Below, piece after piece: positions 18,001-40,900 of a stretch of DNA of 64,000 bases. The position numbers are program-made. The stretch is from Lytechinus pictus (Eukaryota), in NCBI RefSeq assembly GCF_037042905.1, contig NC_087249.1:47430001-47494000 (forward strand), read 5' to 3'. Position 1 is the stretch's first letter, and each line of letters begins with the position of its first letter.

Positions 18001-21000
18001 TCTTAACCTGATTAATTGTCGATTAAAAATATTGGAAGTTGACAATTATGTTAACTTTAACAAATTTTTGATAAATCCTTGATAACGTATCTGTTCCATG
18101 ATTCTGCAGACACGTTGTATAAAACATATCTCACACAATTAACAAAGCTCTTGAACACGTTAAATTAACGACGGCAACTCTAACTGCTAAAGTTGTAATA
18201 TACCGAAGTAAATGAAATAAATACACAAGTTCTACCTAAACAAAATCCTAGATAAGGGGAGCGTTTAATGAAATGACTTGTCGGACGTTTTATCTGACAG
18301 TTACAATAGCAACAGTGATTCTCAGCAAAAATCAAAATCACGGGAAGTTGTTCGATCTGACAACTTGTCGGATGAAAATGTTGATGAAACGCTCACTTGG
18401 GCCCTTTAATACTTTATTGAATGCCAAGCTGTAACTCACCGTTTTCACACTGAGATCCATAGTATTCTGACGTACAGTGGCAAGAGAGGAATTCCCCGGT
18501 TTCTGTGTCACCCTGGCACGTTCCTCCGTTCGAACACACGGGACCAATGCAACCAAGTGCTAAAATATGAATAACACACTGTTAAAACTAGGGTGTTAAA
18601 AACTACACCAGTTGGTGTCTACAGAGGAGCACATTTTCAGTTGTTAAATTACACCCTAGAGATTGAACATGACACCAAAGAAAGTAACACCATTCAACAA
18701 TTTAATCATCACCACCATTTTTCAATTTTTAGTTAATCCCTTTATTTTTTATAAGAAAACTAAAAACGTTATTATAACTAAATAAAATGGAATCTGATGA
18801 AAAAAAGTACCTCACAAACACACAAGCACACCCTCACACCAACATACACCCCATGCTGAACATTTTAGTTGCGTAGAAGACACAAAATATTAACATGGGC
18901 TTTTGATTTTTATGAGAGCATACAAATAAAACTGAGAGGGGGAAGATGGTGAGAGAGACAGATACATGAGACAAAGAGAGGAGGGTGGGGAGAGAGAGAG
19001 GTGGAGAATGGAAGTTTCTCTCATTTGAGTGAATTCCGAATAGAATATACCAAAATTAAGATCGAGTAAAGAAGAAATCTTGAAATCATGAAGCAGGCAA
19101 AGAGGGAAGAGAACTTGAAGCTCAATCTATTCAGCCTTTTCCTTAATTTATGTTTTCCGTTGGGAATATAGAATACGGTGTACACTCACCGTAGCTTAAA
19201 ACAATAGTTTCACCGTCCAAGATGGCAATTGCAGCATGACAGTCTGTGGAATATGCCGATACGTCAGCGCATTAAAACTTACCCGTTTGACATTCATCTC
19301 CAGTGAAGCCCTCACGGCACAAACAGGTGTAGAACTCAGAGACAGCGACGCAAGTTCCTCCGTTATCACAAGGACTAGAGCTCCAGCATGGATGAACTAA
19401 TTCGTCAAAAAGGGAGAGAATATCAATACTAATTCTTTCTCAATCGTTGTGATTCCACATGATTCGGGCTTTTTCACAGACAGGCTGCTCCTATCATTGC
19501 AAATTTGTAATNNNNNNNNNNNNNNNNNNNNNNNNNNNNNNNNNNNNNNNNNNNNNNNNNNNNNNNNNNNNNNNNNNNNNNNNNNNNNNNNNNNNNNNNN
19601 NNNNNNNNNNNNNNNNNNNNNNNNNNNNNNNNNNNNNNNNNNNNNNNNNNNNNNNNNNNNNNNNNNNNNNNNNNNNNNNNNNNNNNNNNNNNNNNNNNNN
19701 NNNNNNNNNNNNNNNNNNNNNNNNNNNACTACTCCTACTTACTCCTTTTACTACTCCTACTCCTACTACTACTACTACTACTAATATTAATGATAATAAT
19801 AAGAAGAAGAAGAAGAGGAAGAGAAGAGAAGAAGATGATAAGAGTGAAGAAAAATATAAACAAAAATAGATTAAGAATTAGAACAAGTATGAAAGTGATA
19901 ATTATACTACTGATGATTATGGTGGAGGTATGACCATGATATTATAATGAGAAAAGGGACAAGATCAAAGAGAACAAGAAGGATATATTACCATTTTCAC
20001 ATAAAGGACCAGTGATGAGGGGTGAACTGCTGATACATTCTGCTTCAAAGGAATCACTGACTTTGCAGAGGCAGTCATTCTCGCATGGATTCGGTATACA
20101 TGGATCATCTGAAATATAAATTAGAGCACACTCTTAACATGTTGGGCAACACACTGTCCACACAAGATTTGGTTAAAAACCTTATCCAACTCTGGATATT
20201 TTTCAACCAATGTTTAGTATTCACCCAAATCACTCATTATTGGTTTAAAACTTCCCAGAATTGGATAAAGTGTTAACCAATTGTTGTGTGGACAACATTT
20301 TTAAGAGTGCAGAGTGATACGACGACGACTACTACTACTTCAACTACTACTGCTACTTCTACTACTACTACTACTTCTTCTTCTTCTTCTACTTCTTCTT
20401 CTTATTCTTCTACTACTACTACTACTATACTATACTACTACTACTACTACTACTACTCACCGCCGCTACTACTACTACTACCACTACGACTACTACTACT
20501 ACTTCTGTTACGTACTATTATCATTATACCTGTACAAGCACCTTTATCCTTATTATACATACATGAAACAGATATATTGTTTTATTACAAGACAGTAAAC
20601 ATTATTGTTATTCTACGGCGTTTAATGTGGGGAAACAGATTAATTGCGTTAGCGGTAACTTTCAAACAAGAATGCAATTCGCCTGGGGCCCGTTTCATAA
20701 AAAGTTACAACTGTTGTAACTTTGCCATTATGGCAACTACTATGGAAACGGCTCAGCAGCCAATCAAAATCAAGGTTTTCATGGTAGTTGCCAAAATGGC
20801 AAAATTACAACAGTTGTAAGTTCTCTGTATGAAACGGCCCCTGATGGCTTGCAGCATTTTATCACCATTTTTGCGGTCAGGAGATGACAACATATGACAA
20901 TGGATAATTTGGGTGAGTTTTATGTGTACGGATACACTATTGTTTAACCATAGTTTAGCTTACGAACATGCTCCTTTTATGAAAACAAGAAATGTTGTGG

Positions 21001-37967: not shown

Positions 37968-40900
37968 CGTAGTAGTAGTATGAGCAGAAGTACTAGTAGT
38001 AGTGGTAGTGATTGTAATGAGCATAAAGTAATTTTCAATTTGTATTTTTATTTGGAAAACCATCATCTCAAATCATTTTCATGACCGTTCAAAACACTTT
38101 ACTTACATATACAACATGATCAAGGCTACAAATGACCAATCATTTGGTTCATATACACTTCGTCATCTTTAATATAGTTTCATATTTTTAATTAGAGGCA
38201 TAAATTGTGTTTTGAAAAGTGAGCCTACCAATATCACAAAAGGATCCGACCCAGCTTGGAAAGCAGAAGCACGCTGGTTCACCATCAATCACGGCACAAT
38301 TGCCATTTCCGTGACACACGACCTCGGCGGGGCACCACGGAACTTTTAAGTAAGAGATAGAAAAAGTAAGACACTGATCGATAATAAAATTATGAGAATA
38401 AGACAAAGTTACACAGTAACAACGCTTCACACAACCTGGAGTGTGTTTCATAAAACTTACTATAATAACAAATTTGTAATGACAGTTAAACTTGTAGTAC
38501 GACTATTTAAAAGAATTGTATCAAATAGCTTTAATCTCGTAAAGAACCCGAAGCTCATTTAGTTAACTAGGCTGTATAAAATATTTACACGCTGCTTAAT
38601 TTTGTTTCAATTGGTATAGATACAAATGATAAGCGCAGTTTTGATATGATCTGTATACTGGCCTACGTTTAACATAAGGGGAATCTAGATTTCAGACGTA
38701 CGTAAAATTTCTAATCAAACTGCTCCCAGATTTCCATTCTGATTAAGCAAACATATTTCTTAAACAAAGACATGACTAAGCGATTTCAACTATATTGCCA
38801 ATTACCCCTACCCCGGAAAAATGGGAATACGGACTTACTTTCACAGCGATCTCCGGTAAAATATATTGGACAGATGCACTTGCTCGAATCAATCAAAGGA
38901 ACACATGTACCACCATTCTCACAAATGTCGTTCAGAAAACATTCGTTAACTGAACAGAAAGACGAATAAAGAGCGGGAGAAGAGGATAAACAGATTGGGG
39001 AGGAATTAAGTACAAGGATGGAAAGTGAAAGAAAACGTATGAGACATGAGAAAAGGTAAAGAGAAGACGAGATGAAATGGGGGTAGAGATCGGGGAGGGA
39101 GAATAACAGAGAGGAGAGAGGAGGTATGAAAAAGAAAGAGTGTGTTATGTGTGAGAATAGAACAAAATATAAATAATTTATTTTGAGAACAAAAAATGCT
39201 GAATTAAAAATCACAAAAGGCATACGTCGGAGTTACATGGCAAAAATACAATAAAATTAGGTAACAATGGCAATGGAATCATATTATTATTGTTATTATT
39301 AATATTATTATTATTATAATAATTATTATTACATTATTCCTTTTTATATCATTTTGAAAGCATAACTAACTTTCATTGATATTTTCGACAAATAAAGTGT
39401 TATTTCGATACCCTGCTAAACGAAATTTGAGCGTATACTGATGGGGGTATTCGGTCGATCATTTCATTGCAAATTCTGCGGATCGAACTCCTCCCTCATT
39501 TGCGGTCAAGTGCACATGAGACTAGGTATCCACTTTGGTTTGGTTAAGGATGTGCAAAACCTATTTTTCAAACATTCGAAAATTCCTCTTTTTCCTACTG
39601 CGTATAAAGAGAGTTAACCGATTATCATTATTTATTATTAATATTATGATTATTATTCATTTTATACTTATTCATTAATTTGTTACCTATTTCACAAAAC
39701 TCCCCAGCGATATACTGCGAGTCGGTCGTACATACTGCAATCATGTTGTTATCTGCCACGCTGCACGAACAGTTATTCATGCAGGGACTCGGATTGCAAG
39801 GGTCCTCTGCGCAGAAATAAAATATATCATTGTTGAATTGTCATGGCAACAACTTATGATTTCTTATCAAGACTATCAATTTTCCTAAGAAATAGTGATG
39901 TGACTCTGACCCCCTTTATAATATCCGCCATCCCTTTATTTTGAGAAAAAAATAATGTGATTGGCAGTGACGTCATGAAATCAAAACTTTAATCATAACT
40001 CCGCATTTTTTGGGATTTTTATCAAACATTTACGAATATTCTTTTTCCTTTTAATTTTTTCTGATTTTATTAAAGGACAAGTCCATCCCCAAAAGTAGAT
40101 TTGAATAAAAAGAGAAAAATCCAACAAGCATAACACTAAAAAATTAATCAAAATCGAATGTAAATAAGAAAGTTATGACATTTTAAAGTTTGCCATGAAT
40201 TTCTTATTTTACATCCGAGTTCGATGAAATTCCCAGTGTTATGCCCTTTTGATTTTTCTCTATTTATTCAAATCAACATTTTTCTGGGGTGGACTTAACC
40301 TTTAATGGGTATATGAACAGACAGCCTTAATAATAGCCCCACCCCAAGTCCTAAACTACTCATATCTGACCAGGTTCATCACCCATCATGCAACAGTCCC
40401 AGACAAAGGTCTGAGCAGCGTTGTCTTGAACATAATATTATAGACCCACTTGAATGATGACACACTTATTCGCTATACTCATATCCCAGTACATTCAAGT
40501 CGCAATACCCATGTTGCCACGAAGCAAAACATGTACTTTTCCTTTCAATAACGGTCCATTTTCTCTGCAAAAACACCTGATTTTTACACATTATGATAAC
40601 GATTGTTACCTACCGTTTTCACAGAGTTGTCCTATGACACCGTCAGGGCAGTAACAGGTAAACCTATCGATTTCATCCATGCAAGTACCTCCGTTGTCAC
40701 AAGGATTTGAAGAGCACTCGTTAATATCTGTGTGAGGGACAGTAAGAAGTTTATTATCGACACTAAAATATCCGATCAACATCAAACCAACATCTATAGG
40801 GTTAAACACCAGCTTTCCACGTTTATTGTTTTCATCTTCAAAATTCTTTTACCAATATATCATTAACTTGCTTCCTCTCCCACATATATTTGAATAACCT

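What the first reader, a model, noticed from the sequence alone, without database searches (positions are those of the whole stretch)
19992..39806. Two EGF modules share a relocated cysteine, suggesting a disulfide swap
Seen: EGF13 (C-NPSP-C-MNN-C-S-C...AV-C-TTDSQYIAGEF-C) and EGF17 (C-IPNP-C-END-C-L-C...AE-C-ISSSPLITGPL-C) both lack canonical Cys5 of the C-x-C pair. Both gain a Cys in place of the conserved Gly two residues before Cys3, so each keeps six cysteines. The two modules are otherwise quite divergent. Known: EGF disulfides pair 1-3, 2-4 and 5-6. Inference: the new Cys pairs with the orphaned Cys6, giving an alternative EGF topology kept by selection that standard EGF patterns could miss.
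Basis: partly seen in the sequence, partly recalled or inferred. Interest (0 to 1): 0.68.

Follow-up and report, generated by a model that had tools for sequence, protein, structure and literature searches.

The report
Sea urchin EGF modules, shifted cysteine
Two modules of a giant sea urchin EGF-repeat gene have lost one standard cysteine and gained another nearby, a change also kept in a second urchin species, so one of the three disulfide bonds has probably been re-anchored.

Summary
The window is sea urchin DNA (Lytechinus, not human). It carries a minus-strand FN3 + EGF-repeat gene with 35 EGF exons, all phase 1-1. Exons 39687-39806 and 19992-20108 are the only two of 35 that lack the C-x-C pair and have Cys in place of the small residue two before Cys3 (G25/A5/S1 in the 31 canonical modules aligned). 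Both keep six cysteines, and both get no Pfam hit even at E<=10.

Two corrections. The modules are each other's closest relatives (45-48% identity, one group at 97/97 on a tree), so this is one origin followed by duplication, not two events. "EGF17" is the 18th EGF exon, because a canonical exon at 21279-21392 was missed.

Both variants recur with all six cysteines in Strongylocentrotus purpuratus gene models, at 63-65% and about 50% module identity, so the framework is conserved.

AlphaFold2 models (pLDDT 79 and 86) are EGF-like. Their hairpin register puts the new Cys opposite the vacated Cys5 place. That fits a Cn-Cys6 bond, giving 1-4, 2-5, 3-6 connectivity. MAFFT and hhalign prefer a register in which Cys4 is the missing one.

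Verdict: partly supported, a new variant of a known kind, of moderate interest.

The parts
39687..39806 (-). Variant EGF exon 'EGF13' (120 nt, phase 1-1). Its six Cys are C1 39798-39796, C2, new Cys 39771-39769 (TGT), C3 39765-39763, late Cys 39732-39730 and C6 39696-39694. Thr (ACC) 39726-39724 sits where Cys5 would be.
   Evidence: The exon is included in the NCBI model fibropellin-1-like [Lytechinus pictus], P0001 residues 684-723.
19992..20108 (-). Variant EGF exon 'EGF17' (117 nt, phase 1-1; really the 18th EGF exon). New Cys 20073-20071 (TGC), late Cys 20037-20035, C6 20001-19999. Ser (AGC, one base from TGC) 20031-20029 sits where Cys5 would be.
   Evidence: No database protein of 71-2000 aa shares three 5-residue words with it. 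An S. purpuratus counterpart is in P0010.
21279..21392 (-). ATT G|gtgagt, 114 nt by my reading). It lies between EGF16 and 'EGF17'.
   Evidence: The script took an earlier GT as the donor; I take the gtgagt donor. P0010 has a module in the same place.
40614..40727 (-). EGF12, the canonical neighbour upstream of EGF13. It is the last of twelve modules starting D-x-D/N-E/D-C, which by eye is the calcium-binding type of start.
   Evidence: Pfam gives PF00008 at E 1.3e-08; the EGF_CA match is below its cut-off.
3464..62424 (-). The host gene within the window. FN3-coding exons lie at about 62424-59596, followed by 35 EGF exons from 57631 down to 3464. The gene is cut off by the window at both ends.
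   Evidence: tblastn of P0001 on the window gave 90-100% identity per exon. Pfam finds fn3 and EGF on P0001.

Best explanation
The two exons encode real, translated EGF-like modules of a very large extracellular FN3 + EGF-repeat protein of a sea urchin. NCBI's automatic name for the matching model is 'fibropellin-1-like'.

In an ancestor of both modules, the half-cystine that normally sits on the second strand of the main beta-hairpin (Cys5 of the C-x-C pair) was replaced by Ser/Thr. A new Cys (Cn) appeared on the first strand, two residues before Cys3, where canonical modules have Gly or another small residue. That position is the cross-strand neighbour of Cys5.

The most likely result is that Cys6 now bonds to Cn. 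The pairing would be C1-C3, C2-C4, Cn-C6, which in sequence order changes from 1-3, 2-4, 5-6 to 1-4, 2-5, 3-6. The C-terminal loop, one residue longer and without its usual first Gly, would then be tied to strand 1 of the hairpin instead of forming its own closed sub-loop.

The module was duplicated within the gene before Lytechinus and Strongylocentrotus split. Both copies have kept all six cysteines since.

Shown: the sequence pattern, the splice sites, conservation in S. purpuratus models, the predicted EGF fold and the predicted hairpin register. Inferred: the Cn-C6 bond itself, and any effect on rigidity or on the exit angle towards the next module.
For: - Pattern and splice sites.
- Small-residue constraint: G25/A5/S1 at Cys3-2 in 31 canonical modules. 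This fits tight packing at that spot.
- Loop lengths: the C5-C6 loop is 8 residues in 31 of 31 canonical modules, while the C3-C4 loop varies from 8 to 14. If the late Cys is Cys4, the variants need a hairpin loop of 9-10 (within the normal range) and a tail one residue longer. If it is Cys5, an otherwise invariant loop must grow by 3.
- AlphaFold2: EGF13 has pLDDT 79.0 with strands 14-18 and 23-28. EGF17 has pLDDT 86.2 with strands 14-17 and 23-26. This pairs Cys3 (residue 15) with the late Cys (26 or 25), and Cn (13) with Thr28 or Ser27.
- Foldseek against the PDB: the best matches listed are EGF domains. For EGF17, TMq is 0.58-0.80 (mostly about 0.7-0.8) and rmsd 1.2-3.0 A (mostly 1.2-2.0) over 35-45 columns. 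For EGF13, TMq is 0.44-0.66.
- hhalign of the 4 variants against the 31 canonical modules: probability 96%.
- Conservation: P0006 (fibropellin-3-like, S. purpuratus) and P0010 (XP_011674088.1, S. purpuratus) carry C-x4-C-x3-C-x-C-x9-C-x11-C. They lie after an EGF11/12-like pair and after an EGF16/16b-like pair respectively. 14 columns are invariant in the 4 variant modules, including all six Cys.
- Single-base paths: GGY to TGY for Cn, and TGC to AGC at the Cys5 place of EGF17.
Against: - No coordinates were available, so the Cn-C6 sulfur distance was never measured.
- The register is read from DSSP strand limits only. Each AlphaFold2 run had a 4-row alignment.
- MAFFT, hhalign and one of two HMMER alignments to Notch EGFs put the late Cys in the Cys5 column. 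An Ala that is invariant in all 4 variants then falls in the Cys4 column.
- No solved structure with this pattern was found by sequence, so there is no experimental precedent.
- Exon inclusion rests on automatic gene models only.
- The L. pictus model P0001 stops by reading into the intron after EGF16, and no database protein of 71-2000 aa shares three 5-residue words with 'EGF17'.
- The exhaustive profile search found the exact pattern in only 3 of 26 hits, one being the window's own gene. Its range beyond these two urchins is unknown.
Confidence: 0.55

Rival explanations
1. The missing half-cystine is Cys4, now the invariant Ala. The late Cys is Cys5 and still bonds Cys6 across a loop lengthened by three residues. 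Cys2, having lost its partner, bonds the new Cys four residues away (1-4, 2-3, 5-6). Alternatively the new Cys bonds the late Cys across the hairpin, and Cys2 bonds Cys6.
For: MAFFT and hhalign choose this register, as does one HMMER alignment to Notch1 EGF (SFEAEC against SFECQC). In EGF13 the Cys3-to-Ala spacing equals the canonical 8. The Ala is invariant in 4 of 4 variants.
Against: It needs a C5-C6 loop of 11 residues, where 31 of 31 canonical modules have exactly 8. The AlphaFold2 strand limits in both models put the late Cys, not the Ala, opposite Cys3. A C-x3-C bond would leave the Cys2 loop untied to the hairpin; this last point is inference.
Confidence: 0.22
2. The new Cys and/or Cys6 are not paired within the module. 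They serve in bonds between chains or between modules, cross-linking the matrix protein. From recall, teneurin EGF repeats with an odd cysteine count work this way.
For: The multi-repeat Pfam model EGF_TEN (teneurin EGF region) aligns across the variant modules in P0001, P0006 and P0010. A related module in P0002 has seven cysteines.
Against: The cysteine count is even in 4 of 4 urchin variants. The gain and the loss are coupled, which is what an internal swap predicts. The EGF_TEN matches for P0006 and P0010 are below the model's cut-off. No test of chain-to-chain binding was made.
Confidence: 0.1
3. The exons are skipped or decaying, so the odd cysteines are tolerated because the modules are not in the mature protein.
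For: Both exons are phase 1-1 and a multiple of three in length, so skipping keeps the frame. No L. pictus protein in the database contains 'EGF17'. No transcript data were seen.
Against: The frames are open, with good acceptor and donor sites. All six Cys and eight other columns are invariant between urchin genera while the rest of the module diverged to about 50-65% identity. The modules are included in three automatic gene models.
Confidence: 0.06

Closest known systems
Canonical hEGF-type EGF-like domain (Pfam PF00008 / PF12661)
   Same: Exon size and phase, the C1-x4-C2 and C2-x5-C3 spacing, and the Gly three residues before Cys6 are shared. The predicted fold is the same, and hhalign gives 96% probability. 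The 31 canonical neighbours have the 8-residue C5-C6 loop that a passage of PMC2725086 gives for hEGFs.
   Different: There is no C4-x-C5 pair, there is an extra Cys two residues before Cys3, the tail is one residue longer, and there is no Pfam hit at E<=10. The probable connectivity is 1-4, 2-5, 3-6 instead of 1-3, 2-4, 5-6.
hEGF versus cEGF classes
   Same: This is a known case where the third disulfide of the EGF fold sits differently between subtypes. [quoted passage not shown]
   Different: In that case the last half-cystine (Cys6) moves and the C-x-C pair stays. Here the first partner (Cys5) moves to the other strand.
Group 1 versus group 2 thrombospondin type-1 repeats
   Same: Small extracellular six-Cys modules of one fold exist in two disulfide patterns, one of which is C1-C4, C2-C5, C3-C6 (passage of PMC11990869).
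   Different: It is a different fold and family. This is an analogy of principle only.
Teneurin EGF repeats with a replaced cysteine
   Same: These are EGF repeats that depart from the six-Cys rule (recalled, not from a call). The Pfam model EGF_TEN aligns over the region.
   Different: As recalled, those repeats have an odd cysteine count and use the free Cys for dimerisation. Here the count stays at six. The one teneurin paper I searched for the words 'cysteine' and 'dimeriz' gave no passage on this.
EGF domains with non-canonical pairing on canonical positions (AspH substrates)
   Same: They show that EGF disulfide patterns other than 1-3, 2-4, 5-6 exist (PMC6817910; title and start of abstract from the search listing only).
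   Different: The cysteine positions there are the standard ones; only the pairing differs.

Membership tests
EGF-like domain (fold level) | Small module with a main two-stranded beta-hairpin and a C-terminal loop, superposable on solved EGF domains | tested here: met
   The test uses AlphaFold2 predictions only (pLDDT 79.0 and 86.2). The listed Foldseek PDB matches are EGF domains. For EGF17, TMq is mostly 0.7-0.8, rmsd mostly 1.2-2.0 A and probability up to 1.00. EGF13 is weaker, with TMq 0.44-0.66.
EGF-like domain (sequence family, Pfam PF00008/PF07974/PF12661) | Match to a curated EGF profile above its cut-off | tested here: not met
   Both isolated modules gave 0 families at E<=10. Of four canonical neighbours, three matched PF00008 at E 1e-9 to 1e-6 and the fourth (21.3 kb exon) only below the cut-offs. 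hhalign to the gene's own canonical modules gives 96% probability.
EGF-like domain | Six cysteines at the standard positions, including the C4-x-C5 pair (PROSITE-type signature C-x-C-x2-[GP]-[FYW]-x(4,8)-C, recalled) | tested here: not met
   There are six Cys, but no C-x-C after the hairpin, and an extra Cys lies two residues before Cys3.
EGF-like domain | Disulfides 1-3, 2-4, 5-6 | not testable with these tools
EGF module as exon unit | One module per phase 1-1 exon within a run of EGF exons | tested here: met
   All 35 EGF exons, including the two variants, fit phase 1-1 with AG and GT sites.
Calcium-binding EGF (cbEGF) | N-terminal D/N-x-D/N-E/Q before Cys1 (consensus recalled) | tested here: not met
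   The variants start E-D-P-C and D-D-P-C. EGF1-12 upstream start D-x-D/N-E/D-C.
Fibropellin (the name given by NCBI's pipeline) | EGF repeats followed by a C-terminal avidin-like domain (recalled) | not tested
   The 3' end of the gene lies outside the window. The N-terminal part is FN3. The name is automatic.

The most novel reading that the evidence does not exclude
An EGF fold held by 1-4, 2-5, 3-6 disulfides. The third bond would have hopped from strand 2 to the facing residue on strand 1 of the hairpin. This would be a compensated two-step change (Gly to Cys, Cys to Ser) fixed once, duplicated within the gene, and kept in two urchin genera. A seven-Cys relative in front of a ZP-like region in an unrelated protein (P0002; its nearest Atlas cluster is mostly molluscan, which is a lead only) would mean the subtype is wider than echinoids and invisible to standard EGF profiles.
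Probability: 0.4. Interest if true: 0.55.

Novelty: new variant of a known kind. Interest (0 to 1): 0.4.

Why it matters
EGF modules are among the commonest extracellular building blocks. Their six-cysteine rule underlies domain annotation and the reading of disease variants, for example cysteine changes in NOTCH3 or fibrillin.

A naturally conserved module in which one half-cystine has moved to the facing strand would be a worked example of how a disulfide can migrate without passing through a lasting odd-cysteine state. It would also show that profile and pattern methods drop such modules: here there was no Pfam hit at E<=10.

For the urchin protein itself, the first variant sits just after the run of twelve modules with a calcium-binding-type start. 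A differently tied C-terminal loop there could change how the chain bends, but that is speculation. The finding is a modest structural curiosity rather than a new system.

Tried and rejected
- Pfam on the isolated variant modules gave nothing at E<=10.
- PDB sequence searches with each module and with the 4-row profile returned only canonical EGF domains at weak E-values, none with the variant pattern.
- The word-index search with 'EGF17' (longer proteins) found no candidate. With EGF13 it found only the L. pictus model. With the 4-row profile it found only P0001, P0006 and P0010 among 119 candidates.
- The exhaustive profile search gave 26 hits at E<=0.001. The exact six-Cys pattern was in 3 of the 26 (one is the window's own gene), and a seven-Cys version was in 1.
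- I looked for model coordinates on the script machine and found none, so there is no SG-SG distance.
- Six literature searches found no description of an EGF module with this cysteine shift. Subscription journals and supplements were not searchable.
- The idea of two independent gains was rejected, because the four variant modules form one group (97/97, 98% of 200 bootstraps). The diagnostic cysteine columns themselves help to group them, and only 41 columns were used.
- Sequencing or assembly error was rejected: there are two separate exons plus a second species.
- The genome-contig collection (bacteria and archaea) was not used because it is irrelevant.
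Full report
WHAT THE WINDOW IS

The window has 32-40% G+C. On its minus strand it carries one very large gene made of single-module exons.

A six-frame scan and a splice-aware scan list 35 EGF exons from 57631 down to 3464. Every one fits an AG acceptor, a GT donor and phase 1-1.

The EGF13 peptide is 100% identical to residues of an NCBI model named fibropellin-1-like [Lytechinus pictus] (P0001, 901 aa). tblastn of that model on the window gives 90-100% identity exon by exon, including four FN3-coding exons at 62.4-59.6 kb. 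So the window is Lytechinus DNA, either L. pictus (another haplotype or assembly) or a very close relative. I do not take it for human.

The two N runs (19512-19727 and 41123-41334) lie in introns and were left alone.

The spliced product was never joined. Every search with window sequence was made exon by exon, and the joined step was left out. Public gene models were used as the databases returned them.

THE OBSERVATION

The exon at 39687-39806 (120 nt) and the exon at 19992-20108 (117 nt) have good polypyrimidine/cag acceptors and gtaaca/gtaata donors.

Their cysteine spacing is:
- C-x4-C-x3-C-x-C-x10-C-x11-C for EGF13
- C-x4-C-x3-C-x-C-x9-C-x11-C for EGF17

The other 33 of 35 EGF exons have the canonical C4-x-C5 pair. 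Among the 31 canonical modules aligned (two exact duplicates left out), the residue two before Cys3 is G in 25, A in 5 and S in 1. In the two variants it is Cys.

The isolated variants match no Pfam family even at E<=10. Four canonical neighbours tested alongside match EGF models: three hit PF00008 at E 1e-9 to 1e-6, and the 21.3-kb exon only weakly and below the cut-offs.

TWO CORRECTIONS

First, there is one more canonical EGF exon, at 21279-21392, with a ttttacttcag acceptor and a gtgagt donor.

Second, the two variants are not independent:
- They are 45-48% identical to each other, against 20-39% for EGF13 versus any canonical module.
- On a tree of 38 modules, the two variants and their two S. 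purpuratus counterparts form one group. Support is 97/97, in 98% of 200 bootstrap trees.
- Only 41 columns were used, the bootstrap had not fully settled, and the diagnostic cysteines help to group them.

One origin followed by duplication within the gene is the simplest reading.

CONSERVATION

An exhaustive profile search with the two modules against 1.84 billion representatives gave 26 proteins at E<=0.001. A regex over all 26 found the exact six-Cys pattern in three: P0001 (the window's own gene), P0006 and P0010.

A later search named P0006 as fibropellin-3-like [Strongylocentrotus purpuratus] and P0010 as XP_011674088.1, PREDICTED fibropellin-1 [S. purpuratus].

- P0006 has an EGF11-like and an EGF12-like module followed by the variant. 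The variant matches EGF13 at 25 of 38 positions (63-65%).
- P0010 has an EGF16-like module and a module matching the 21.3-kb exon. Next comes the variant, which matches EGF17 at 19 of 37 to 20 of 38 positions, and then a module starting VHPC like the window's next exon.

In the four variant modules, 14 columns are invariant. They include all six Cys, a Val two after Cys3, an Ala two before the late Cys, and the Gly three before Cys6.

The refuting outcome 'orthologues have canonical cysteines' therefore did not occur. From recall, the two genera are separated by some tens of millions of years.

Limits:
- These are automatic gene models, not transcripts.
- P0001 ends by reading into the intron after EGF16.
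- No database protein of 71-2000 aa shares three 5-residue words with the window's EGF17.

WHICH CYSTEINE IS MISSING?

MAFFT, hhalign and one of two HMMER alignments to Notch1 EGFs place the single late Cys in the Cys5 column. The invariant Ala then falls at Cys4, with a three-residue insertion before Cys6. The other HMMER alignment places the late Cys at Cys4.

(i) Loop lengths. The C5-C6 loop is exactly 8 residues in 31 of 31 canonical modules, while the C3-C4 hairpin loop ranges from 8 to 14.
- With the late Cys as Cys4, the variants have hairpin loops of 10 and 9 (within the normal range) and a tail one residue longer.
- With it as Cys5, an otherwise fixed loop would have to grow by three in all four variants.

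(ii) AlphaFold2 models built from the 4-row variant alignment.
- EGF13: strands 14-18 and 23-28 (pLDDT 79.0).
- EGF17: strands 14-17 and 23-26 (pLDDT 86.2).
- These limits pair Cys3 (residue 15) with the late Cys (26 or 25), as Cys3 pairs with Cys4 in canonical EGF. That canonical register is recalled from human EGF.
- The new Cys (13) is then paired with Thr28 or Ser27, the place of Cys5.

Both models resemble solved EGF domains and nothing else among the listed matches. For EGF17, TMq is mostly 0.7-0.8 and rmsd mostly 1.2-2.0 A, with probability up to 1.00. EGF13 is weaker, with TMq 0.44-0.66.

MECHANISM

The position two before Cys3 is the cross-strand neighbour of Cys5. It accepts only Gly, Ala or Ser in the canonical modules, which fits a side chain squeezed against the Cys5-Cys6 bond.

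Replacing Cys5 by Ser/Thr and the small residue by Cys would let Cys6 bond to the facing strand with a shift of a few angstroms. The extra tail residue could absorb that shift (inference).

The codons allow single-base steps: GGY to TGY for the new Cys (TGT, TGC), and TGC to AGC at the Cys5 place of EGF17.

Written in sequence order, the pairing changes from 1-3, 2-4, 5-6 to 1-4, 2-5, 3-6. The C-terminal loop would then no longer be a self-closed sub-loop but would be tied to the core hairpin.

I could not measure the sulfur distance, because model coordinates are not given to scripts. The bond itself remains inferred. I put it at about 0.55. The alternative pairings on the Cys4-lost register get about 0.22, inter-chain use about 0.1, and unused exons about 0.06.

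COMPARISON WITH WHAT IS KNOWN

By fold (predicted) and by profile-profile comparison (96%) these are EGF modules. By curated profiles and by the C-x-C signature they are not recognised.

Known variation of the third disulfide exists. [quoted passage not shown] That is what the 31 canonical modules here have.

A closer analogy in principle is the thrombospondin type-1 repeat. Its group 1 and group 2 forms have different disulfide patterns, the second being C1-C4, C2-C5, C3-C6 (passage of PMC11990869).

Six full-text searches found no description of an EGF module with Cys5 moved to the facing strand. Subscription journals and supplementary files were not searchable, so this is absence in what I could search. 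PDB sequence searches found no chain with the pattern.

I file it as a new variant of a known kind.

SIDE LEADS

P0002 (1318 aa, unnamed) has 18 canonical EGF modules and then a module with the same C-x-C at Cys3, no Cys5, and one extra Cys, seven in all. After that comes a region whose nearest ESM-Atlas clusters are ZP-domain proteins, the first mostly molluscan (score 0.95). Pfam found no ZP domain at E<=0.001. If this module is related, the subtype is wider than echinoids. This was not followed further.

EGF13 also fits the O-fucose spacing C2-x4-[S/T]-C3 given in PMC11990869, with the new Cys as the fourth x.

VERDICT

- Interest is moderate.

Noticed in passing
window 29729-34194 (+): Part of a gene lies on the opposite strand, nested in the 16-kb intron between EGF16 and the 21.3-kb EGF exon. 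Three open stretches each hold one SRCR domain (PF00530, E 1e-26 to 1e-29) at 29729-30124, 30386-30721 and 32634-33029. A further stretch at 33883-34194 has a hydrophobic, Cys-rich segment that looks like a membrane anchor (no Pfam hit).
   Followed up: partly
window 9439-12671 (-): There is a tandem duplication of a roughly 2.0-kb unit carrying two EGF exons. Exons 12514-12636 and 10532-10654 encode identical peptides, as do 11699-11824 and 9676-9801. The DNA copies are 94-98% identical at a spacing of 1982-2023 bp. This is either a recent duplication or an assembly duplication.
   Followed up: partly
window 3464-17742 (-): The 3' half of the gene alternates between two module types. One starts AYPC and ends CQYG, with a 12-13 residue hairpin loop. 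The other starts (E/D/N)(D/N)PC and ends CENG or CEHG. This points to repeated duplication of a two-exon unit.
   Followed up: no
window 37575-37907 (-): The NCBI L. pictus model P0001 does not splice after EGF16. It reads on into the intron (GKLQLNNCRSF...) to a stop. That model is probably truncated at the 16-kb intron.
   Followed up: partly
P0002 residues 904-938: In an unnamed 1318-aa EGF-repeat protein, the last EGF before a ZP-like region has the C-x-C at Cys3 and no Cys5, plus a seventh Cys in the hairpin.
   Followed up: partly
window 39783-39763 (-): EGF13 keeps the O-fucose spacing C2-x4-S-C3 (C-MNNC-S-C), with the new Cys inside it. EGF17 has Leu at that place.
   Followed up: no
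window 22934-23218 (-): An open stretch of 95 aa contains LPTGYGKN, which recalls a helicase ATP-binding motif and could be a remnant of a mobile element in the intron. Pfam gave no hit at E<=0.01.
   Followed up: partly
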